Shown: positions 33,667-41,560, numbered from the stretch's first letter. The stretch: DNA of 64,000 nt from Clostridium sediminicola (GCF_050402865.1 NZ_BAABMF010000007.1:8141-72140), one strand, 5' to 3'. Notes: generated by a model not told the origin, from the letters alone. Program-made: numbers and translations.

Positions 33667-33723
33667 AAAAAAAATCTAGAAACACTATATCAATTATCCG
33701 CTATAGTGTTTCTAGATTTTTTA
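33667..33723. terminator. 16-bp-stem hairpin ATCTAGAAACACTATA-N12-TATAGTGTTTCTAGAT flanked by A and T runs (bidirectional terminator)
   Basis: Read directly from the sequence. It overlaps the stop of the 33721..34155 gene. Confidence 0.7.
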
Positions 33724-34155
33724 AGTTCTCTTTTTAAATTCATATTTACACATCTTACATGTAACAACTAAGTTCCCTTTTCCTCTTGGTAATCTCAATT
33801 TTTGCTTACATTCTGGACATTTTACAACAACAAAGTTTTTTCTCTGTTCAACTTTTCTAATAGCTTTATAATATTGATTTTTTACTTTCAATAATATTCC
33901 TTTATTAAAATATTTAGATAGTTTATAATTTAAGCCACCTAATCTATATTTTATAGTACCCACAAAAGTTCTATATGCCATCTCTTCCTTTTGTCTCTTT
34001 GGAAAGTCTTTAGAAAAAATTCTAAAAATACTATACCCAATAAAAACTGGTGCAACAAAATATGATTTTGTAAGAATTAAAAGCACACCAACTATTAATA
34101 AAAACTTAGAAAAACTATCTAAGCCGTATTTACCGTTAATATAATTATTCTTCAT
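33721..34155 (-). CDS. small membrane protein with a C-terminal zinc-ribbon (CPEC...C..C)
   Basis: One or two TM helices, then CPECKQKLRLPRGKGNLVVTCKMCKYEF. It is the first gene of the flotillin operon. Confidence 0.5.
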   Translation of the reverse strand: MKNNYINGKYGLDSFSKFLLIVGVLLILTKSYFVAPVFIGYSIFRIFSKDFPKRQKEEMAYRTFVGTIKYRLGGLNYKLSKYFNKGILLKVKNQYYKAIRKVEQRKNFVVVKCPECKQKLRLPRGKGNLVVTCKMCKYEFKKRT

Positions 34156-34395
34156 GTCTTCACCCCTGTTTTGCTATATTATATTTTGAAATGATATCTC
34201 TATCCAATCTGTAGATCACAATTGAAATAGATTGCGAAGCGCTTTTCTTCGCAATTTATAATCATTCCTTCTTCTTAAATTAATTCTAATACCCAAGAAT
34301 ACTAATTACAATAGCTTTTCACCTTTATTAATACTTTTTTTATAATTGAAAGAAAAAACCACACCATTTATGCTGCATACTATATATATTCAACT

Positions 34396-34470
34396 GTGAA
34401 ATTTAATTTATACATGTACCAAAATCTCCGGTACTAACGAGTTATGGTACATGTATAAATCTATTATTGA
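34396..34470. repeat. Family B palindromic element, copy 4
   Basis: Arms TTTATACATGTACCA / TGGTACATGTATAAA form a perfect 15-bp pair. Leader AAATTTAATTTATAC. Confidence 0.75.
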
Positions 34471-34509
34471 GCTTAGATATCTATTTCTAAAATAAATTTT
34501 ATTTTTCCC

Positions 34510-34539
34510 TTGACAATTAGCAAAATTATTAATACTATT
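34510..34539 (+). promoter_or_regulatory. Sigma-A-type promoter of the ytrA-like operon (TTGACA-N18-TACTAT)
   Basis: -35 TTGACA at 34510-34515 and -10 TACTAT at 34534-34539. Confidence 0.5.
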
Positions 34540-34542
34540 ATT

Positions 34543-34567
34543 AGTGTACTAATAAACACAGTACACT
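34543..34567. promoter_or_regulatory. YtrA-type operator AGTGTA-N13-TACACT, plus an extra TACACT half-site 3 nt downstream
   Basis: AGTGTA at 34543-34548, a 13-nt spacer, TACACT at 34562-34567. A second TACACT lies at 34571-34576. Confidence 0.6.
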
Positions 34568-34685
34568 TAATACACTTAATACAGTTTCATGATTATTCAA
34601 AAATATAATTAAAGCTTTTGCTTGCAAAAGGTATCCATTACTGACAACTGTCAACTGAAATAATGTATTGAAAGGAGGTCTTTAT

Positions 34686-35090
34686 TTGATAAAAATAAAT
34701 AGTAGAAGTAGTCGTCCTATCTATGAACAGATTATAAATGGAATTAAAGAAAACATACTTAAAGGAATTCTTGAACCTGGAGAAAAACTCCCTTCAGTAA
34801 GGGAAATGTCTTCATTAATTACCGCTAATCCGAATACGGTAAGTAAAGCCTATAAGGAACTTGAAAGGCAGAAGGTAATAGAAACTATACGAGGAAGAGG
34901 AACTTATGTATCTTCAGATTATAAACCAAGACTAGAGGAGGATAGAATGAAGGTATTGAAGGAAGAAATAAAAAAAATCATAATTGAAGCTCATTATATG
35001 GGAATAAAAAAAGAAGACCTTATAAACCTTATGAATAATTTTTATGAAGAAGTAGACAAAAATTCAGTAACAGAAGGAAGTGAAAAATAG
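34686..35090 (+). CDS. ytrA: GntR-family transcriptional repressor, YtrA subfamily
   Basis: Winged-HTH pattern (LPSVREMSSLITANPNTVSKAYKELERQKVIETIRGRGTYV). The short C-terminal domain is typical of the YtrA subfamily. TTG start at 34686 is 8 nt after AGGAGG. The ORF-track start at 34668 would place the RBS inside the gene. Confidence 0.75.
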   Translation: MIKINSRSSRPIYEQIINGIKENILKGILEPGEKLPSVREMSSLITANPNTVSKAYKELERQKVIETIRGRGTYVSSDYKPRLEEDRMKVLKEEIKKIIIEAHYMGIKKEDLINLMNNFYEEVDKNSVTEGSEK

Positions 35091-35974
35091 TGATTAAAAT
35101 ATCCAATATAAATAAAAGTATTGAAAACAAAAAAATACTTAATAATATAAATCTAACTGTATCAAAAGGAAGTATATTTGGATTGATTGGTCCTAATGGT
35201 GCTGGCAAAACTACTTTAATAAAATGTCTCACAGGTATTTACGATGTTGAAGATGGCCAAATAGAAATAATGGAACAACCGGTTTTTAATAATTGCTCTA
35301 TAAAAGAAAAATTTGCTTATGTTCCAGATACAAATTCTTTTTTTGAATTTCATAAGATAAAAGATGTGATTAAATTCTATACACTTACTTACAAAGATTT
35401 TGACATAGAAAAATTTCATAGTATCAATAGAGTTTTTAATATACCTTTGAATTCTTCATTAAAAAAATTATCTAAAGGAATTAACATGAGACTTTCACTA
35501 CTATTAGCACTTTGTATAAAACCAGAAGTACTAATTTTAGATGAGCCATTGTCCGGAATAGATCCTATAGTAAAAAGCCAAATTTTAAAACTTTTAATAG
35601 AAGAAACTGCTGAAAGAGAAACAACAATATTTATATCTTCACATAATCTAAGCGACCTTGAGAAAATATGTGATACTATTGCAGTTATGAATAATGGTGA
35701 AATAAAACACTTCAGTTCCTTAGATAATATGAAAGAGAATTTCAAAAAAATCCAAATAGTTTTTAAAGATTCACCTCCTAATATTCAGGACTTACCTGGA
35801 GTTATTTCCTCAAATACTATTGGAAGAGTTTATACTATTGTTACTTCTCAATATGAATCATTCAAAAAAGAACTTGAAGAATGCGACCTAATTCTTTTTG
35901 AAGAAATAGATTTAAGTTTAGAAGATATTTTTATTCATTCTCTAGGAGGTGATGGCCTTGAAGAAATTTTATAA
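35090..35974 (+). CDS. ABC transporter ATP-binding protein (YtrB-like)
   Basis: Walker A GPNGAGKTT, signature LSKGINMRL (degenerate), Walker B LILDEPLSGID, H-loop SSH. Confidence 0.85.
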   Translation: MIKISNINKSIENKKILNNINLTVSKGSIFGLIGPNGAGKTTLIKCLTGIYDVEDGQIEIMEQPVFNNCSIKEKFAYVPDTNSFFEFHKIKDVIKFYTLTYKDFDIEKFHSINRVFNIPLNSSLKKLSKGINMRLSLLLALCIKPEVLILDEPLSGIDPIVKSQILKLLIEETAERETTIFISSHNLSDLEKICDTIAVMNNGEIKHFSSLDNMKENFKKIQIVFKDSPPNIQDLPGVISSNTIGRVYTIVTSQYESFKKELEECDLILFEEIDLSLEDIFIHSLGGDGLEEIL

Positions 35975-37016
35975 TAAAGCTTTATTTTATAAAGAATTCA
36001 AATCATCTTTAAGTTTTATTGGTATATTATGGCTTTCATTATTTATGGAATTCACCAATCACTTTATACGTGAAACACAAAATTTAAAAACTTTGTCAAA
36101 AGATTTAATTTCCATGGGAACATATAATTCTATAGAGTTTACAGAAAATATCTCTAACACTTTATCTAGTCTTTCAAATAATAGTGGAATGTTTTATTCA
36201 ATTTGTTCATTAATAATAATTAGTTTTTGGATTGTAGGAAAGGAAAGACAAAACAATAGAAATGAAATGCTCAGTACTATGCCCTTTTCAAGAGAAGAAA
36301 TCATAGGCACGAAATGGATATTAGTTTTTATTTCAATAATCATTGCTATGTTTCTAAATTTAGCAATCATTTTATGGAATTGTTCTGTAAATTCCAATAT
36401 TTATTCTATTATTCCAAATATATATAATTTATTACTCTATTGGATAATTTCAAAAACTTTGCTTTACATTTTTATTTTCACTTTTATAATGTTTGTTTCC
36501 TCAATTTGCGGAAGATTTTTTACCGGAGGATTATTAGGCTCTATATTCTTGATTGTACCTTTTTATCTAACTGTTACTATCCCTCCTTTTATTGGATATT
36601 TTGCAGTTATTAATGGAACCAGATTAATATCAGAAGCAACGATTGCTAATTTAGAAAATTTTGTTCTTCGAATATATGCTTTATTTAATTTTTATACTTA
36701 TGATAATAATTTGGTCAAATACTTCAATACTTTATCTTTACTTTCAATCATAGGTATTATCATCTTCTTAAGCTTATTATTTATATCATTCAAAAATAAT
36801 AGCTTTGAAAAAATCAATGAACTTTGTATGTTCAAATCTTTTGAATATATATTGAAAATTGGTGTATCTGTCTGTTTCACATTGTTGATAACCACTATAG
36901 CCGTTGACACAAATGCTCATACAATTGAAGATGCATACATTGCTGCACCTACTGCTTTTATAACTTTGATAGTAACATATATCTTAACAAATAAAATCAT
37001 TAAATACTTTAAATAA
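35949..37016 (+). CDS. ABC-2-type membrane permease (YtrC/D-like)
   Basis: Polytopic hydrophobic protein of 355 aa. It overlaps the upstream ATPase gene, indicating translational coupling. Confidence 0.6.
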   Translation: MMALKKFYNKALFYKEFKSSLSFIGILWLSLFMEFTNHFIRETQNLKTLSKDLISMGTYNSIEFTENISNTLSSLSNNSGMFYSICSLIIISFWIVGKERQNNRNEMLSTMPFSREEIIGTKWILVFISIIIAMFLNLAIILWNCSVNSNIYSIIPNIYNLLLYWIISKTLLYIFIFTFIMFVSSICGRFFTGGLLGSIFLIVPFYLTVTIPPFIGYFAVINGTRLISEATIANLENFVLRIYALFNFYTYDNNLVKYFNTLSLLSIIGIIIFLSLLFISFKNNSFEKINELCMFKSFEYILKIGVSVCFTLLITTIAVDTNAHTIEDAYIAAPTAFITLIVTYILTNKIIKYFK

Positions 37017-37111
37017 ATTGAGAAGTAAGCTTAGCAATTTATTTCCATTTTGCAACAACTTATAAATTTGAAAATTTTTTAAATAATCATCAAAATATTG
37101 GAGGAAATATA

Positions 37112-38020
37112 ATGAATGTTTTAGAAGTTAAAAACCTAAAAAAACGTTTAGGTAAACGAGAAATCATTAAAGATGTAAGCTTTTCAGTAAAAAAAGGGGA
37201 GATTTTTGGATTTTTAGGGCCAAATGGTGCTGGTAAAACTACAACAATAAGAATGCTTGTAGGTCTAATCGCTCCAAATTCAGGTTCTATATCCATTATG
37301 GGTCATGATATAAAAAGCGAAAGAGAGCTAGCTCTTGACAAAGTGGGCGCTGTTGTTGAGAACCCTGAATTATATACTTATTTATCTGGAAGAGAAAACT
37401 TAATGCAGGTTGCTAGAATCAGAAAAATTTCTAAGAAAAGAGTAGATGAAGTTGTTGAATTAGTTCAATTAACAGACCGTATAAATGATAAAGTCAGAAA
37501 ATATTCTTTAGGAATGAAGCAAAGATTAGGATTAGCCTTAGCCTTATTATCAAAACCTGCGTTATTAATATTAGATGAGCCAACAAACGGTTTAGACCCT
37601 TCTGGAATACTTGATTTTAGAGAAATAGTACAAAAGGCTGCAAAAGAAACTGGCACAGCTGTTTTTGTTTCCTCTCATATACTAGCAGAAATCCAACAAT
37701 TATGTGATACAGTTGCTTTTATTAATAACGGCGTTATTCAATCAGTAGAAAGCTTAAATAAAAAAGAAAAGGAAAAATTAGTTTCAGTTACTCTAATTAC
37801 TAAAGAAATTGAAAAAGCTACAGCTATTCTAAGTTCCCTTTCATTTATAAAAGATTTTTCATCAAAAGAAAATACTTTTTCAATAAAAGTCTCTGAAGAA
37901 TTGATACCCGAAATTGTATTTGCTCTTGCAGAACATCGAATCCCTATTGATGAAATTTTCAAGAGCCATAGAGAGCTTGAAGAAAGATATATGCAGCTTG
38001 TTGAAGGAGGAATCAGATAA
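37112..38020 (+). CDS. ABC transporter ATP-binding protein (YtrE/BcrA-like)
   Basis: [40 protein letters not shown]. Confidence 0.85.
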   Translation: MNVLEVKNLKKRLGKREIIKDVSFSVKKGEIFGFLGPNGAGKTTTIRMLVGLIAPNSGSISIMGHDIKSERELALDKVGAVVENPELYTYLSGRENLMQVARIRKISKKRVDEVVELVQLTDRINDKVRKYSLGMKQRLGLALALLSKPALLILDEPTNGLDPSGILDFREIVQKAAKETGTAVFVSSHILAEIQQLCDTVAFINNGVIQSVESLNKKEKEKLVSVTLITKEIEKATAILSSLSFIKDFSSKENTFSIKVSEELIPEIVFALAEHRIPIDEIFKSHRELEERYMQLVEGGIR

Positions 38021-39213
38021 TGTTTACTTTAATTAAAAATGAAACAATTAAACTTTTAAAAAGGACCAAAACTTTAGTTACTTTTATTGCTTTTCTTTTG
38101 CTTACTGTGTTAATCACATTCTCTACTTATAAAATGATAGAGAATAATAAAAAATGGCAAGATCCTGATTACAAGATTCAAATGGCCCAAGAAAATATTA
38201 ACCGTTACAAAGCTGATAAAACAAGTTCAGATGTGGACAAAGATTATCAAAACCAAATAGATGAGTTAATAAAAAATGAAGAAGCAAATATTGAACAATA
38301 TAAATTAGAAAAAGAACAAGGTAAAGTAGATTGGAAAGTAACTGTTAACAAAACAATCGAAGATTCAAAAAATCTACTAAAGGATGAAACTCTTACAAAA
38401 GAATCTAAAGAGAGTATTCAGCAACAGTTAGACTTAAATGAATATTATATTGCTAATAACATAGAACCTAACGATAATGTGTTTAATGCTTATAATGCTT
38501 TAGGGACTATAATAATGATTTTGGGTTCTATATTCCTAGCAATAGGATTAGCAATCTTTGCATCAGATATGGTATCTGGAGAATATACTCCTCCAACAAT
38601 GAAGGTGCTATTAATTCAACCTGTTTCTAGGGGCAAAGTTCTATTTTCCAAATTTATATCTATAGCTTTGACCTGTGTAACTCTAATAGTATCTGTTGAA
38701 ATATTAACATTCTTGTTTGTAGGTGTTTTCTTTGGCTTTGGCAGCAGTAATTATCCTGTAGTAGTGGGTAAGAAATTTTATTTTGACAAAATAGTATCAA
38801 GTAATGCAGCTCCACAAATAAAAGAAATACTTGGAAGTTCTCATATTGCTCCTATTTGGAAAGTTACACTACAAGGAGTTTTGCTTCAAATACTCTTTAT
38901 AATAGCAGTTGTTGCCTTTGTTTTCCTTATCTCTACTGTTATGAAAAGTAGTATGTTATCAATGAGTTTAAGTAACGTAACTATAGTTGCCTTATTTATA
39001 ATTCCTAATTTATCACACAGTATAAAGAAAGTAATGCCTTATTGTTTCATAACATATGGTAATAGCTATGCTTTACTTGATGGTTCTTTAAATATGGGTT
39101 ATAATACACCTTTCATAACTCCATTATCTGCTTCACTGGTAATGAGTATTTGGATAGTTGTTTGCTACTTAATATCACACTTTGTATTTGTAAAGAAAGA
39201 CGTTTTAATATAG
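38020..39213 (+). CDS. ABC transporter permease with a large extracytoplasmic coiled-coil loop (YtrF-like)
   Basis: One N-terminal TM, about 140 aa of a charged extracellular region, then several TM helices. The start overlaps the ATPase stop. Confidence 0.6.
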   Translation: MFTLIKNETIKLLKRTKTLVTFIAFLLLTVLITFSTYKMIENNKKWQDPDYKIQMAQENINRYKADKTSSDVDKDYQNQIDELIKNEEANIEQYKLEKEQGKVDWKVTVNKTIEDSKNLLKDETLTKESKESIQQQLDLNEYYIANNIEPNDNVFNAYNALGTIIMILGSIFLAIGLAIFASDMVSGEYTPPTMKVLLIQPVSRGKVLFSKFISIALTCVTLIVSVEILTFLFVGVFFGFGSSNYPVVVGKKFYFDKIVSSNAAPQIKEILGSSHIAPIWKVTLQGVLLQILFIIAVVAFVFLISTVMKSSMLSMSLSNVTIVALFIIPNLSHSIKKVMPYCFITYGNSYALLDGSLNMGYNTPFITPLSASLVMSIWIVVCYLISHFVFVKKDVLI

Positions 39214-39222
39214 CTTCATAAT

Positions 39223-39256
39223 AAAATCCTCAGAAGTAATGATTTCTGAGGATTTT
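39223..39256. terminator. Bidirectional terminator hairpin AAAATCCTCAGAA-N8-TTCTGAGGATTTT
   Basis: Read directly from the sequence. It lies between the convergent ytr-like operon and the response-regulator gene. Confidence 0.7.
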
Positions 39257-39257
39257 G

Positions 39258-39932
39258 TTATCTGGATTTCAAAAATTTATATGCTCCTGTTTCTATCATA
39301 AGCTTTTTTACTTCACTAGTTTTTTTGCATCCAAATTTATGAATAATATTCCCAACATGATACTTAATTGTTACTAATTCAACTCCTCTTATGGCCGCAA
39401 TCTCTTTTTGCTTTTTACCATCCATAAGAAGATTCATAATACCAATTTCTGTATTTGTTAAACTAGATATCATATTAACCACATTTAATAGATTATTTCT
39501 CAAATTTTCAAACTCAACTAGTTTCTTTCTTATAGTAGTGGCAGCATATGACCTTATTGGAGACGAATCGTTATATGCTTGTCTTATAGCTTCTAAAATT
39601 TCAGAAGAAGATGCTGTTTTTAAAACATAATCAACTGCTCCTGCCTCATAAGCTTCAATAATTGCTTCTTCATCTTCATGGCAAGTAAGCATGATAATTT
39701 TTATGTTAGGATTCATATTCAAAATTTCTTTGGTGGCCTTTATACCTGTATCTTTTGAATCCATTTCAATATCCATTAAAATAATATCCGCTTCATGTTT
39801 TTGTGCTAATTTTACTACCTCACTCCCATTATATGCTCTACCAATAACCTCCAAGTCTTTCTCATAATTAATTAAATTATAATATATATTATTTAGTGTT
39901 TCAAAATCTTCAGCAATAATACATTTGATCAT
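39258..39932 (-). CDS. LuxR/NarL-family response regulator
   Basis: Receiver domain with Asp (ILMDIEM), Thr and Lys at the conserved positions. C-terminal LuxR-type HTH (KQKEIAAIRGVELVTIKYHVGNIIHKFG). Confidence 0.8.
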   Translation of the reverse strand: MIKCIIAEDFETLNNIYYNLINYEKDLEVIGRAYNGSEVVKLAQKHEADIILMDIEMDSKDTGIKATKEILNMNPNIKIIMLTCHEDEEAIIEAYEAGAVDYVLKTASSSEILEAIRQAYNDSSPIRSYAATTIRKKLVEFENLRNNLLNVVNMISSLTNTEIGIMNLLMDGKKQKEIAAIRGVELVTIKYHVGNIIHKFGCKKTSEVKKLMIETGAYKFLKSR

Positions 39933-41425
39933 AACTGCCCCCTATTATTTGGTATATACAATTTAAAACTAGTACCTTTATCAAGAATACTTTCTACATC
40001 AATAACTCCTCCAAAAGCTTCAATAACCTTTTGACAATAGGCTAGTCCTATTCCCCAATTTGAAACAGTAGCTTTTGTTGAGTAAAATGGTTGGAATATT
40101 TTATCTATATCTTTTTTATCCATACCGCAACCGTTATCATGAATTTCAATCACTCCATATTCTACCTTCTCATCTATCACAACAGTAATTTCAGGGCTAT
40201 CCATAAAACTACAAGCTTCTATAGAATTTCTTATAATATTTTCCATAACCTTTTTGAACTCTTTCTTATCAATATTTAAATAAATAGTTCTTTTCTCTAT
40301 AACATCAAAGGTTATACTAGGATTCATCTTTTTAAAAGTTTCTATCATTTTAAGAACAATCTTATTTACATCAACAAAACTGTACTTTAGCTTTATCTTA
40401 CTCATGTTTTTCGATAATTGACTAATTTGTTCTATAGTCTCATTACATATTCTAATTATTTCATTTTGTAATAACTCGTCATCTTTCTTTTTAGATTCCT
40501 CAGCTAAGTATCTTATTGCAATTAGTTGATTTTTAACTGAATGAGAAAATATCCTTCCTCCAATATTTGCTGTATGTAATTGTTTTTCAAAATCTATATT
40601 ATTTTTTCGTACATTTATTTCAAATATATTGTATTTCAATATTGCATAGATTAATAAAATTACAGATACTACTGATATTATTGTTATTCCATTATAAAGA
40701 ATCTCATTATAAGGAATGCTTATATTTGATAACTGTCCAAATCTGCTAAAAATTATCTTTTGATTAGGATACCAATAAAATAAAACAAGAAATAGAAAAT
40801 GTATAGGAATAATTCCAATAAACATATACTTGAATTTTTTTCTAAGTTTCGGTATGATTCTACTTTCAATATATAACAGAACAATAATGCTGGTTACGAG
40901 GTAAATTTTCATTAGTGAATTGGAAACTAAAGCTAATGACTTTATTATAGAATTCACCTTGATATAATAATCTGAATTTACATATCCATTAAAAATCACT
41001 CTATTATTTATCTTATATATAACCTTTAGTACATCTGGATCAAACAATATTATTAATACTAAAGGAAAAACTGCTAATACCAAATAAGCTACTTTCTTAG
41101 AGTGTTTGCTCACAATAAATGAAACTGAAAAACAAATAGCTCCGTATATATATATGGCAGTACCTATGTTCATTATTCTATATTGGTCATTTATATCAAG
41201 CTTCAAAAAATAATTTATTTTCCATATATAATTTGAAATGTTAGAATAAAGTCCGTTTACAGTGTAGTGAGAACTACTTAAATACTCTGTATAAAAAGCT
41301 AATCCAAACATAGCTAATGAAAATCCAATAAGCATAGTGCTAAGCCAAACTATATTTTTTGTTCTATAATTTTTTACTATTAGAAAAATATTAAAAATAA
41401 TATATGTGAAAAATAACCATATCAT
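39929..41425 (-). CDS. polytopic membrane sensor histidine kinase (6-7 TM N-terminal domain; AgrC/HPK10-like H-box; HATPase_c)
   Basis: About 260 aa of TM helices. H-box FSHSVKNQLIAI, N-box IIRNSIEA, G-boxes HDNGCGM and NWGIGL. The start codon overlaps the response-regulator gene by 4 nt. Confidence 0.75.
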   Translation of the reverse strand: MIWLFFTYIIFNIFLIVKNYRTKNIVWLSTMLIGFSLAMFGLAFYTEYLSSSHYTVNGLYSNISNYIWKINYFLKLDINDQYRIMNIGTAIYIYGAICFSVSFIVSKHSKKVAYLVLAVFPLVLIILFDPDVLKVIYKINNRVIFNGYVNSDYYIKVNSIIKSLALVSNSLMKIYLVTSIIVLLYIESRIIPKLRKKFKYMFIGIIPIHFLFLVLFYWYPNQKIIFSRFGQLSNISIPYNEILYNGITIISVVSVILLIYAILKYNIFEINVRKNNIDFEKQLHTANIGGRIFSHSVKNQLIAIRYLAEESKKKDDELLQNEIIRICNETIEQISQLSKNMSKIKLKYSFVDVNKIVLKMIETFKKMNPSITFDVIEKRTIYLNIDKKEFKKVMENIIRNSIEACSFMDSPEITVVIDEKVEYGVIEIHDNGCGMDKKDIDKIFQPFYSTKATVSNWGIGLAYCQKVIEAFGGVIDVESILDKGTSFKLYIPNNRGQL

Positions 41426-41470: not shown

Positions 41471-41560
41471 AAACTTAATCTATACATGTACAAAATCTCA
41501 GGTAACAATAAGTTTTAGACTTGTATAGATTTATTGTTCAAGTGCTTTATCTCTATTATA
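41471..41560. repeat. Family B palindromic element, copy 5, with a TTTATCTCTAT tail
   Basis: AAACTTAATCTATACATGTACAAAATCTCAGG ... AGTTTTAGACTTGTATAGATTTATTGTTCAAGTGCTTTATCTCTAT. Confidence 0.75.

What the first reader, a model, noticed from the sequence alone, without database searches (positions are those of the whole stretch)
34510..39213. YtrA-type repressor operon that conserves the AGTGTA-N13-TACACT operator seen in Bacillus subtilis
The GntR gene is followed by two ABC ATPase/permease pairs, which is the ytrABCDEF-like layout. Its promoter (TTGACA-N18-TACTAT) is immediately followed by AGTGTA-13 nt-TACACT plus an extra TACACT half-site. To my recollection this is the same long-spacer inverted repeat reported for B. 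subtilis YtrA, whose operon responds to cell-wall antibiotics. Conservation of the operator in a Clostridia-like genome suggests an orthologous envelope-stress or antimicrobial-peptide response module. The third half-site hints at cooperative or extended binding.
Basis: partly seen in the sequence, partly recalled or inferred. Interest (0 to 1): 0.55.

Follow-up and report, generated by a model that had tools for sequence, protein, structure and literature searches.

The report
Self-repressed YtrA transporter operon in Clostridium
This is an ordinary Clostridium copy of the known YtrA repressor and ABC-transporter operon, with the same promoter and operator layout as in Bacillus subtilis; the one added detail is a row of extra repressor half-sites spaced exactly 9 bp apart.

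Summary
A TTGACA-N17-TACTAT promoter (spacer 17, not 18) is followed 4 nt later by AGTGTA-N13-TACACT at 34543-34567. This is the only exact match in the 64 kb window, and none is expected by chance.

The gene behind it is a 134-aa YtrA-subfamily GntR regulator from Clostridium sediminicola. It is 61% identical to B. subtilis YtrA, and the recognition helix is identical.

I read the B. subtilis ytrG/ytrA promoter directly. It has the same -35/-10/operator register and the same 9-bp arms (AGTGTACTA-N7-TARTACACT).

The palindrome is conserved upstream of 28 non-redundant related operons. It occurs once per locus across 0.9 Mb of fetched DNA.

The "third half-site" is also conserved. It belongs to a tandem array in strict 9-bp phase, with 1-6 units per locus and 3 in the window.

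The layout is only partly ytr-like. Regulator, ATPase and permease correspond to YtrA, YtrB and YtrC/D. The second ABC pair is ABC-2 type and unrelated to YtrEF, and there is no ytrG.

The most likely mechanism is autorepression by a dimer sitting over the transcription start. The inducer is unknown.

YtrA regulons, long palindromes and flanking half-sites were already catalogued (Suvorova 2015). This is a new member of a known kind, of low to moderate interest.

The parts
34510..34515 (+). -35 box, TTGACA
   Evidence: A TTGAC(A/T) box at the same distance from the palindrome is present in most orthologous loci and in Bacillus.
34533..34538 (+). -10 box, TACTAT, 17 nt after the -35 box
   Evidence: It lies 4 nt upstream of the palindrome, the same register as TATTGT-ATTA-AGTGTA in B. 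subtilis. The transcription start is inferred at about 34544-34546.
34543..34567 (.). Palindromic YtrA operator: AGTGTACTA-ATAAACA-CAGTACACT (the same site as AGTGTA-N13-TACACT)
   Evidence: Unique in the window, 0 expected. Scores 27.1 bits with a weight matrix built from other species. Conserved in 28 non-redundant loci, including columns 7-9 and 17-19 that were not used to pick the sites.
34568..34576 (+). Extra half-site unit 2, TAATACACT, 9 bp after the right arm
   Evidence: A match of at most 1 mismatch to TA[A/G]TACA at offset +9 occurs in 21 of 28 loci. At nearly all out-of-phase offsets it occurs in at most 2 of 28 loci, with one exception of 4 of 28 at -23. Columns 26-32 are conserved in 21-26 of 28 loci.
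34577..34585 (+). Extra half-site unit 3, TAATACAGT, 18 bp after the right arm
Evidence: Offset +18 is matched in 9 of 27 loci.
34586..34685 (+). Non-conserved 5' leader, with ribosome-binding site AGGAGG at 34673-34678
   Evidence: Not alignable with the closest relatives L001 and L002. No Rfam match. Folding z-score -1.8. No ytrG-like ORF.
34686..35090 (+). YtrA-subfamily GntR repressor, 134 aa, TTG start
   Evidence: Pfam GntR E=2e-16. 100% identical to a 134-aa Clostridium sediminicola protein. 61% identical to B. subtilis YtrA. The AlphaFold2 model shows a winged helix-turn-helix plus two C-terminal helices, and its best fold matches are YtrA-type structures.
35090..35974 (+). ABC ATPase A, the YtrB counterpart; its start overlaps the regulator's stop codon
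   Evidence: ABC_tran E=4.5e-27. 31% identical to YtrB over residues 1-287, E=1e-56. Found next to the regulator in most of the related loci.
35949..37016 (+). Multi-pass membrane protein B, a YtrC/YtrD-family permease; overlaps the end of A
   Evidence: A profile of 11 orthologues matches YtrC (hhalign probability 98.8%, E=1e-16) and YtrD (98.8%, E=4e-17). Hydropathy predicts about 7-9 transmembrane segments.
37112..38020 (+). Second ABC ATPase C, DrrA / lantibiotic-protection type
   Evidence: ABC_tran E=3e-33. Best NCBIfam matches are galliderm_ABC (238 bits) and drrA (219 bits), both below their cut-offs. Not specifically YtrE-like. Present only in the window, L002-L007 and, in a variant form, L014.
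38020..39213 (+). ABC-2 permease D, with a large loop between TM1 and TM2
   Evidence: ABC2_membrane_2 E=8.6e-29. No similarity to YtrF. No relative among solved structures.
39218..39261 (.). Bidirectional terminator hairpin that closes the operon
   Evidence: Folding energy -24.7 kcal/mol, z-score -6.2, followed by UUUUG. No terminator-like hairpin lies between the promoter and this point except chance-level hits inside genes.

Best explanation
This is the Clostridium sediminicola ortholog of the B. subtilis ytr regulatory module. It is a five-gene operon: repressor R, a YtrB-like ATPase A, a YtrC/D-like permease B, and an appended ABC-2 pair C-D. It is transcribed from a sigma-A-type promoter at 34510-34538.

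A dimer of the short YtrA-type GntR repressor binds the 25-bp palindrome AGTGTACTA-N7-CAGTACACT. The palindrome starts 4 nt after the -10 box and so covers the transcription start. Binding there blocks RNA polymerase and makes the operon autorepressed.

Two further copies of the right half-site follow in 9-bp phase. They extend the bound region to about +40 and probably recruit additional repressor.

Shown here: the sequence features, their conservation, and the homologies. Inferred: binding, repression and the position of the transcription start.

De-repression most likely follows one of the mechanisms described for relatives. The repressor may be captured by its partner ATPase when the transporter is engaged (the MbrR/MbrA model). 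Or the trigger may be envelope or lipid-II-cycle perturbation, as in B. subtilis. The inducer is unknown.
For: - The site is unique and far above chance.
- The promoter spacer is 17 nt.
- The regulator is 61% identical to YtrA, and the wHTH motif NPNTVSKAYKELE is identical.
- Clostridium-group proteins are the best hits for B. subtilis YtrA outside the Bacilli, at 57-61% identity.
- The B. subtilis, B. cereus and B. licheniformis loci show a TTGAC(A/T) -35 box, 17 nt, TATTGT-ATTA and then the palindrome in the same register. The Aeribacillus locus has the ATTA-palindrome junction but no clear -35 box.
- The palindrome is conserved while its 7-nt centre varies, in 28 loci whose regulators are down to about 42% identical.
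- All 45 hits of at least 15 bits in 913 kb of fetched loci are one per locus, and those checked lie at the head of the operon.
- Half-site units recur in strict 9-bp phase: 21/28, 9/27, 4/24 and 3/13 loci.
- A matches YtrB, and the B profile matches YtrC/D.
- R/A, A/B and C/D overlap or abut. There is no terminator in the B-C gap, and in L003, L005 and L006 B and C are about 20 nt apart.
- A strong terminator follows D.
- Literature: YtrA represses ytr and ywo through this repeat. PmtR protects 36 bp over the transcription start. MbrR is sequestered by MbrA.
Against: - No binding, transcription-start or expression data exist for this organism.
- Promoter-like hexamers are not enriched in this AT-rich DNA: 29 found against 33.5 expected. 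The promoter call therefore rests on positional conservation.
- The C-D pair may have its own weak promoter, TTGAAA-N17-CAAAAT at 37068-37096.
- In B. subtilis the third unit is degenerate (ATAGACACT), and in B. cereus it is out of phase. The array is therefore not universal.
- The physiological role of the ytr system is unresolved even in B. subtilis.
Confidence: 0.82

Rival explanations
1. The operon is functionally a Pmt-type system. In that case it would be a two-transporter exporter or immunity device for the cell's own amphipathic peptides, and those peptides would release the repressor from DNA directly, as with PmtR and the phenol-soluble modulins in Staphylococcus.
For: The five-gene order R-A-B-C-D equals pmtR-pmtABCD. 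The best NCBIfam hits for R, A and, in part, C are PmtR (90.9 bits), PmtA (170 bits) and PmtC (166 bits). PmtR is itself a YtrA-subfamily protein that binds over the transcription start.
Against: All scores are far below the equivalog cut-offs of 200, 350 and 375 bits. B and D show no PmtB or PmtD match. R is much closer to YtrA (61% identity) than the 39% reported between PmtR and YtrA. B belongs to the YtrC/D family. C-D is absent from most orthologous operons. No peptide-toxin gene was seen next to the operon.
Confidence: 0.12
2. The extra half-sites are non-functional by-products of replication slippage of a 9-bp unit. Only the palindrome would then be an operator.
For: Copy number changes quickly between close relatives: 3 units in the window against 6 in L001, whose regulator is 91% identical. 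Copy number ranges from 1 to 6 overall. Five to seven loci have none. The unit is degenerate in B. subtilis and out of phase in B. cereus.
Against: At least one extra unit is kept in exact phase in 21 of 28 loci, with regulators down to about 41% identical, and in Aeribacillus and B. licheniformis. The TAATACA core is conserved while its flanks vary. Flanking half-sites contribute to binding in Sulfolobus YtrA and are common in GntR regulons.
Confidence: 0.2
3. The second transporter C-D is a separate unit. It would be expressed from its own promoter in the 95-nt gap, or controlled by the neighbouring LuxR-type two-component system, and would not belong to the YtrA regulon.
For: There is a 95-nt gap with a weak promoter-like site at 37068-37096. 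C-D is a clade-specific addition. A response regulator and histidine kinase lie immediately downstream.
Against: The gap has no terminator. In L003, L005 and L006 the gap shrinks to about 20 nt. The two-component genes are convergent and are not conserved next to the operon in C. grantii.
Confidence: 0.15
4. The repeat acts at the RNA level, as a 5' hairpin or attenuator, and is not a protein operator.
For: The transcribed part can form a 6-bp hairpin at the 5' end.
Against: Folding of the leader is not significant (z-score -1.8), it has no Rfam match, and it is not conserved. The arms are conserved as sequence, not by compensatory change. In distant homologues the palindrome lies between -35 and -10 and so is not transcribed. 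YtrA binding to this repeat is established in B. subtilis.
Confidence: 0.03

Closest known systems
Bacillus subtilis YtrA and the ytrGABCDEF operon (Salzberg et al. 2011, as cited in PMC8060467)
   Same: - The regulator is 61% identical, with an identical recognition helix.
- The operator is the same, AGTGTACTA-N7-TARTACACT, placed 4 nt after the -10 box of a promoter with a 17-nt spacer.
- A YtrB-like ATPase follows the regulator directly, and a YtrC/D-family permease follows that.
- Autoregulation is implied, because the operator precedes the regulator gene.
   Different: - There is no ytrG.
- There is one YtrC/D-like permease instead of two.
- The MacB/FtsX-type YtrEF pair is replaced by an unrelated ABC-2 pair.
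- There are two well-formed extra half-sites, against one degenerate unit in B. subtilis.
- No second target like ywoBCD is visible in the 64 kb window.
Staphylococcus aureus PmtR and pmtABCD (PMC5080381)
   Same: Both have a YtrA-subfamily repressor as the first gene of a five-gene operon with two ATPase/permease pairs. In both, the operator covers the transcription start. The 36-bp PmtR footprint is about the size of the palindrome plus one extra unit (34 bp).
   Different: All NCBIfam Pmt equivalog cut-offs are missed by a wide margin. The permeases are not recognisably PmtB or PmtD. No phenol-soluble-modulin-like peptides are known here. I could not obtain the S. aureus operator sequence for comparison.
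Streptococcus salivarius MbrR/MbrAB (bioRxiv 10.64898/2026.02.18.706565)
   Same: Both have a YtrA-like repressor encoded immediately upstream of its ABC ATPase and permease, and a palindromic operator in the promoter. EMSA with MbrR shows two complexes, which is compatible with more than one dimer per site. The authors propose that sequestration by the ATPase is general for YtrA/YtrB pairs.
   Different: The interaction between R and A was not tested here. The MbrR regulon has several targets, whereas only one site is seen in this window.
YtrA-subfamily regulons predicted by comparative genomics (Suvorova, Korostelev and Gelfand 2015, PMC4494728)
   Same: That study describes long palindromes with distant GT/AC, single-operon regulons of ABC transporters, and weaker adjacent half-sites. 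It covered 53 Clostridial regulators.
   Different: The strict 9-bp phasing and the 1-6 copy variation of the extra units are not spelled out in the text I could read. The YtrA data sheet was truncated in the held copy.

Membership tests
YtrA subfamily of GntR regulators | N-terminal GntR winged helix-turn-helix domain | tested here: met
   PF00392 E=2e-16, residues 13-75. The model shows H12-25, H38-45, H49-61 and a beta hairpin at 65-75.
YtrA subfamily of GntR regulators | Very short C-terminal domain of about 50 aa made of two helices, with a total length of about 120-135 aa | tested here: met
   The protein is 134 aa, with C-terminal helices 85-104 and 109-129. It matches the YtrA-type structures 4HAM (E=9e-30), 4R1H, 3BY6, 6SBS and 2DU9 over most or all of its length.
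YtrA subfamily of GntR regulators | Gene in an operon with ABC-transporter genes, preceded by a long palindrome with distant GT/AC | tested here: met
   The criterion is taken from PMC4494728.
B. subtilis-type ytr operon (orthology) | The regulator is orthologous to YtrA | tested here: met
   61% identity over 112 aa. Close relatives of the window protein (P0002, P0011, P0050) are among the best hits for B. subtilis YtrA outside the Bacilli. I did not run a full reciprocal search against a B. subtilis proteome.
B. subtilis-type ytr operon (orthology) | Operator AGTGTA-N13-TACACT overlapping the promoter | tested here: met
   The register relative to the -10 box is identical.
B. subtilis-type ytr operon (orthology) | YtrB-type ATPase and YtrC/YtrD-type permeases follow the regulator | tested here: met
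   A is 31% identical to YtrB over its full length. The B profile matches YtrC and YtrD at 98.8% probability. Only one permease gene is present here, against two in Bacillus.
B. subtilis-type ytr operon (orthology) | YtrE/YtrF MacB-FtsX-type second transporter | tested here: not met
   D has ABC2_membrane_2, not FtsX or MacB_PCD, and gives no BLASTP hit to YtrF. C is no closer to YtrE than to YtrB. B. cereus also lacks YtrEF.
B. subtilis-type ytr operon (orthology) | Small membrane protein YtrG encoded between the operator and ytrA | tested here: not met
   There is no ORF of at least 20 aa with a ribosome-binding site in 34586-34685.
B. subtilis-type ytr operon (orthology) | Induction by lipid-II-cycle inhibitors such as vancomycin, ramoplanin and bacitracin | not testable with these tools
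   Known only for B. subtilis.
Pmt (phenol-soluble modulin exporter) system | Proteins reach the NCBIfam equivalog cut-offs for PmtR, PmtA and PmtC, and match PmtB and PmtD | tested here: not met
   Scores against cut-offs are 90.9 vs 200, 170.3 vs 350 and 166.4 vs 375 bits. B and D give no PmtB or PmtD hits.
Transporter-sequestered YtrA repressors (MbrRAB model) | Direct, ATP-dependent binding of the repressor to its partner ATPase | not testable with these tools
   Only adjacency and a 1-nt overlap between the regulator's stop codon and the ATPase's start codon are shown. No complex prediction or assay was available.

The most novel reading that the evidence does not exclude
The tandem array of right half-sites behind the palindrome is strictly 9-bp phased and varies from 1 to 6 copies (3 here, 6 in the closest relative). 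It could be a tunable landing strip on which YtrA dimers stack head-to-tail downstream of the transcription start. Copy number would then set how much repressor must be titrated, for example by the partner ATPase, before the operon fires. Expansion or contraction of the repeat would be a fast evolutionary dial for the induction threshold.
Probability: 0.2. Interest if true: 0.45.

Novelty: new member of a known kind. Interest (0 to 1): 0.25.

Why it matters
The result gives a firm annotation for a Clostridium sediminicola operon that databases currently label only as "GntR family" plus "ABC transporter".

It also shows that the whole YtrA promoter-operator cassette is kept almost base-for-base in register between Bacilli and Clostridia: -35 box, 17 nt, -10 box, 4 nt, then 9-bp arms separated by 7 nt. 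This means predictions and reporter designs from B. subtilis should transfer.

The conserved core is regulator, ATPase and YtrC/D-type permease. The second transporter is swapped between lineages: MacB type in B. subtilis, ABC-2 type here, and none in many clostridia or in B. cereus. That fits the recent proposal that the first ATPase is the repressor's signalling partner.

None of this overturns current understanding.

Tried and rejected
- **Leader RNA element (34586-34685).** There is no Rfam hit, folding is not significant (z-score -1.8), and the leader is not conserved even in the 91%-identical relative. Rejected.
- **ytrG-like small ORF in the leader.** None found.
- **A second regulon member in the window, like ywoB.** The next-best weight-matrix score is 8.7 bits, within the shuffle range. 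None was found, but only 64 kb could be searched.
- **A terminator or operator in the B-C gap.** None found.
- **The original Salzberg 2011 paper.** It is not held in the library. I used secondary citations and read the B. subtilis locus directly instead.
- **The YtrA site table of Suvorova 2015.** It is truncated in the held supplement, so I could not check whether this orthologous group is listed.
- **B. subtilis YtrA query.** The search returned the real protein at 96-98% identity (P0121, P0124), and only that returned protein was used afterwards.


Full report
**1. What is in the sequence**

The region 34500-34590 reads ccc-TTGACA-attagcaaaattattaa-TACTAT-tatt-AGTGTACTA-ATAAACA-CAGTACACT-TAATACACT-TAATACAGT.
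- The -35 and -10 hexamers are 17 nt apart.
- The inverted repeat AGTGTA-N13-TACACT is at 34543-34567. Its arms really extend to 9 nt, matching in 8 of 9 positions.
- The extra TACACT is at 34571-34576.

The exact pattern occurs once in 64 kb and never in 100 shuffles. Looser matches elsewhere are at chance level.

Promoter-like hexamers as such are not enriched in this AT-rich DNA. The promoter call therefore rests on the comparative evidence below.

**2. The genes**
- **R, 34686-35090.** TTG start with AGGAGG 7 nt upstream. It encodes a 134-aa GntR protein. It is 100% identical to an annotated Clostridium sediminicola protein of the same length.
- **A, 35090-35974.** An ABC ATPase whose start codon overlaps the regulator's stop codon.
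- **B, 35949-37016.** A multi-pass membrane protein with only a weak ABC-2 Pfam signal.
- **C and D, 37112-38020 and 38020-39213.** After a 95-nt gap with no terminator come a second ATPase and an ABC-2 permease.
- **Terminator, 39218-39261.** A strong bidirectional hairpin closes the unit (z-score -6.2).
- **Downstream.** Convergent response-regulator and histidine-kinase genes follow.

**3. Is R a YtrA?**

The sequence matches YtrA-type crystal structures over most or all of its length (4HAM at E=9e-30, also 4R1H, 3BY6, 6SBS and 2DU9).

An AlphaFold2 model (mean pLDDT 83.5) shows a winged helix-turn-helix followed by just two long helices. Its best fold matches are the same YtrA-type entries.

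The search returned the real protein (P0121 and P0124, named YtrA by NCBI).
- The window regulator is 61% identical to it over 112 residues.
- In a 16-sequence alignment spanning Clostridium and the Bacillaceae, the stretch PSVRE...NPNTVS.AY..LE...T.RG.GT is invariant.
- Close relatives of the window protein are among the best hits for B. subtilis YtrA outside the Bacilli.

**4. The B. subtilis operator, read directly**

The literature confirms the recalled consensus AGTGTA-13bp-TACACT and the two B. subtilis targets, ytrGABCDEF and ywoBCD (PMC8060467, citing Salzberg 2011).

I fetched the B. subtilis locus (L081). Upstream of ytrG it reads TTGACT-N17-TATTGT-ATTA-AGTGTACTA-ATTGAAG-TAATACACT-ATAGACACT.

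This has the same 9-bp arms, the same 7-nt centre length and the same 4-nt distance from the -10 box as the window. It also has a degenerate third unit in the same 9-bp phase.

B. cereus, B. licheniformis and Aeribacillus loci show the same palindrome directly after an ATTA tetranucleotide. The first two also have the TTGACA -35 box and the TATTGT -10 box in register. The Aeribacillus locus has no clear -35 box. Aeribacillus has a perfect TAATACA third unit and B. licheniformis a near-perfect one.

**5. Conservation across relatives**

A scan of one genome per species returned 80 loci that encode relatives of R.
- In 29 of the closest 32 upstream regions (the window plus L001-L031), a site matching at least 10 of 12 positions with N13 spacing lies just upstream of the regulator gene. 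That is 28 non-redundant loci once L007, a duplicate of L006, is dropped.
- Columns that played no part in choosing the sites are strongly conserved. Columns 7-9 (CTA) are conserved in 24-27 of 28 loci and columns 17-18 (TA) in 26 of 28, while the 7-nt centre varies freely.
- A matrix built without the window scores the window site 27.1 bits as a 25-mer and 38.0 bits as a 34-mer. The shuffle maxima were 16.2 and 9.8 bits. No second site exists in the window.
- Across all 913 kb of fetched loci there are 45 hits of at least 15 bits, one per locus, and those checked lie at the head of the operon. This holds where another gene precedes the regulator (L017) and where the ATPase comes first (L038, L055, L056, L060).

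**6. The third half-site**

I counted matches to TA[A/G]TACA with at most one mismatch at every offset from the right arm.
- Matches occur at +9 in 21 of 28 loci, +18 in 9 of 27, +27 in 4 of 24 and +36 in 3 of 13.
- Nearly every other offset has at most 2 of 28, with one exception of 4 of 28 at -23.

The units therefore form a tandem array in strict 9-bp phase that continues the right arm. Unit number ranges from 1 to 6: 3 in the window and 6 in the closest relative, L001.

There is no mirror-image array on the left side, where the -10 box sits.

Functional flanking half-sites are an established theme. They are reported as common around GntR palindromes, including six YtrA groups (PMC4494728). 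They contribute to binding in Sulfolobus YtrA (PMC6746942).

The 36-bp PmtR footprint and the two MbrR-DNA complexes are compatible with this picture.

**7. How ytr-like is the operon?**
- A is 31% identical to YtrB over its whole length.
- A profile of B orthologues matches YtrC and YtrD at 98.8% probability.
- C is no closer to YtrE than to YtrB. D (ABC-2) is unrelated to YtrF (MacB_PCD plus FtsX).
- Synteny shows that R-A-B is the conserved core. Many clostridia have only these three genes, for example L010, where a convergent gene follows.
- C-D is added in the window, L002-L007 and, in a variant form, L014. L001 is cut off before that point.
- B. cereus has regulator, ATPase and two permeases, with no YtrEF.
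- There is no ytrG equivalent.
- NCBIfam ranks PmtR, PmtA and PmtC as top or high hits, and the gene order equals pmtRABCD. All scores are far below the curated cut-offs. This is therefore not a Pmt system by that test.

**8. Mechanism**

The following is inferred, not shown.
- The transcription start should fall at about 34544-34546, inside the left arm. A bound dimer, plus whatever occupies the two extra units up to 34585, would occlude RNA polymerase or block promoter escape.
- Because the operator precedes the repressor gene, the circuit is autoregulatory.
- Three precedents exist for induction: lipid-II-cycle perturbation in B. subtilis, peptide-mediated release of PmtR, and ATP-dependent capture of MbrR by its partner ATPase, proposed to be general for YtrA/YtrB pairs.
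- The invariant R-A adjacency and their start/stop overlap fit the third model, but I could not test the interaction.

**9. Verdict**

- the promoter spacer;
- the identity of the second transporter;
- the untested physiological role.

The object is a well-behaved new member of an already catalogued regulon type. The only modest addition is the strict phasing and the copy-number variation of the extra half-sites.

Noticed in passing
window 34406-34460: An inverted repeat with 19-nt arms, ATTTATACATGTACCAAAA / TTATGGTACATGTATAAAT, 95% complementary with a 17-nt loop. It lies about 50 nt upstream of the -35 box in the divergent intergenic region. There is no T-run, so it is not a typical terminator. 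Near-copies of the 12-mer arm core (1 mismatch) occur at 41481, 47797 and 50037.
   Followed up: partly
window 34227-34259: A short GC-containing hairpin, GATTGCGAAG-cgctttt-CTTCGCAATT. It lies between the divergent gene 33721-34155 (minus strand) and the ytr-like promoter. Its function is unknown.
   Followed up: no
window 1-64000: GC skew is negative throughout (C 18.7%, G 11.6% on the + strand) and most long ORFs are on the minus strand. The + strand is therefore probably the lagging strand, and the ytr-like operon is one of the few head-on gene blocks.
   Followed up: partly
L001 (JAQYVX010000039.1, 2271 bp): The closest relative in the genome collection (regulator 91% identical, ATPase 73%) is a 2.3-kb contig binned as a Halarcobacter MAG (Campylobacterota). 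It is almost certainly a mis-binned Clostridium contig. Its operator carries 6 tandem half-site units.
   Followed up: partly
L027-L031; L038, L055, L056, L060: In more distant homologues the palindrome sits between the -35 and -10 boxes, and its 7-nt centre and right arm carry the -10 box (for example TTGACA-ATT-AGTGTACTATACGTTATAATACACT). In other loci the operator precedes the ATPase gene and the regulator is encoded about 3 kb downstream.
   Followed up: partly
window 39258-41425 (minus strand): A LuxR-type response regulator (224 aa) and a histidine kinase (498 aa) lie convergent to the operon and share its terminator. They are not conserved next to the operon in C. grantii.
   Followed up: partly
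L009, L010, L018, L073: A second, divergent YtrA-like paralogue (40-47% identical over part of its length) lies 1.4-3.5 kb from the main regulator gene in several related genomes. No high-scoring operator of the same type was found in front of it.
   Followed up: no
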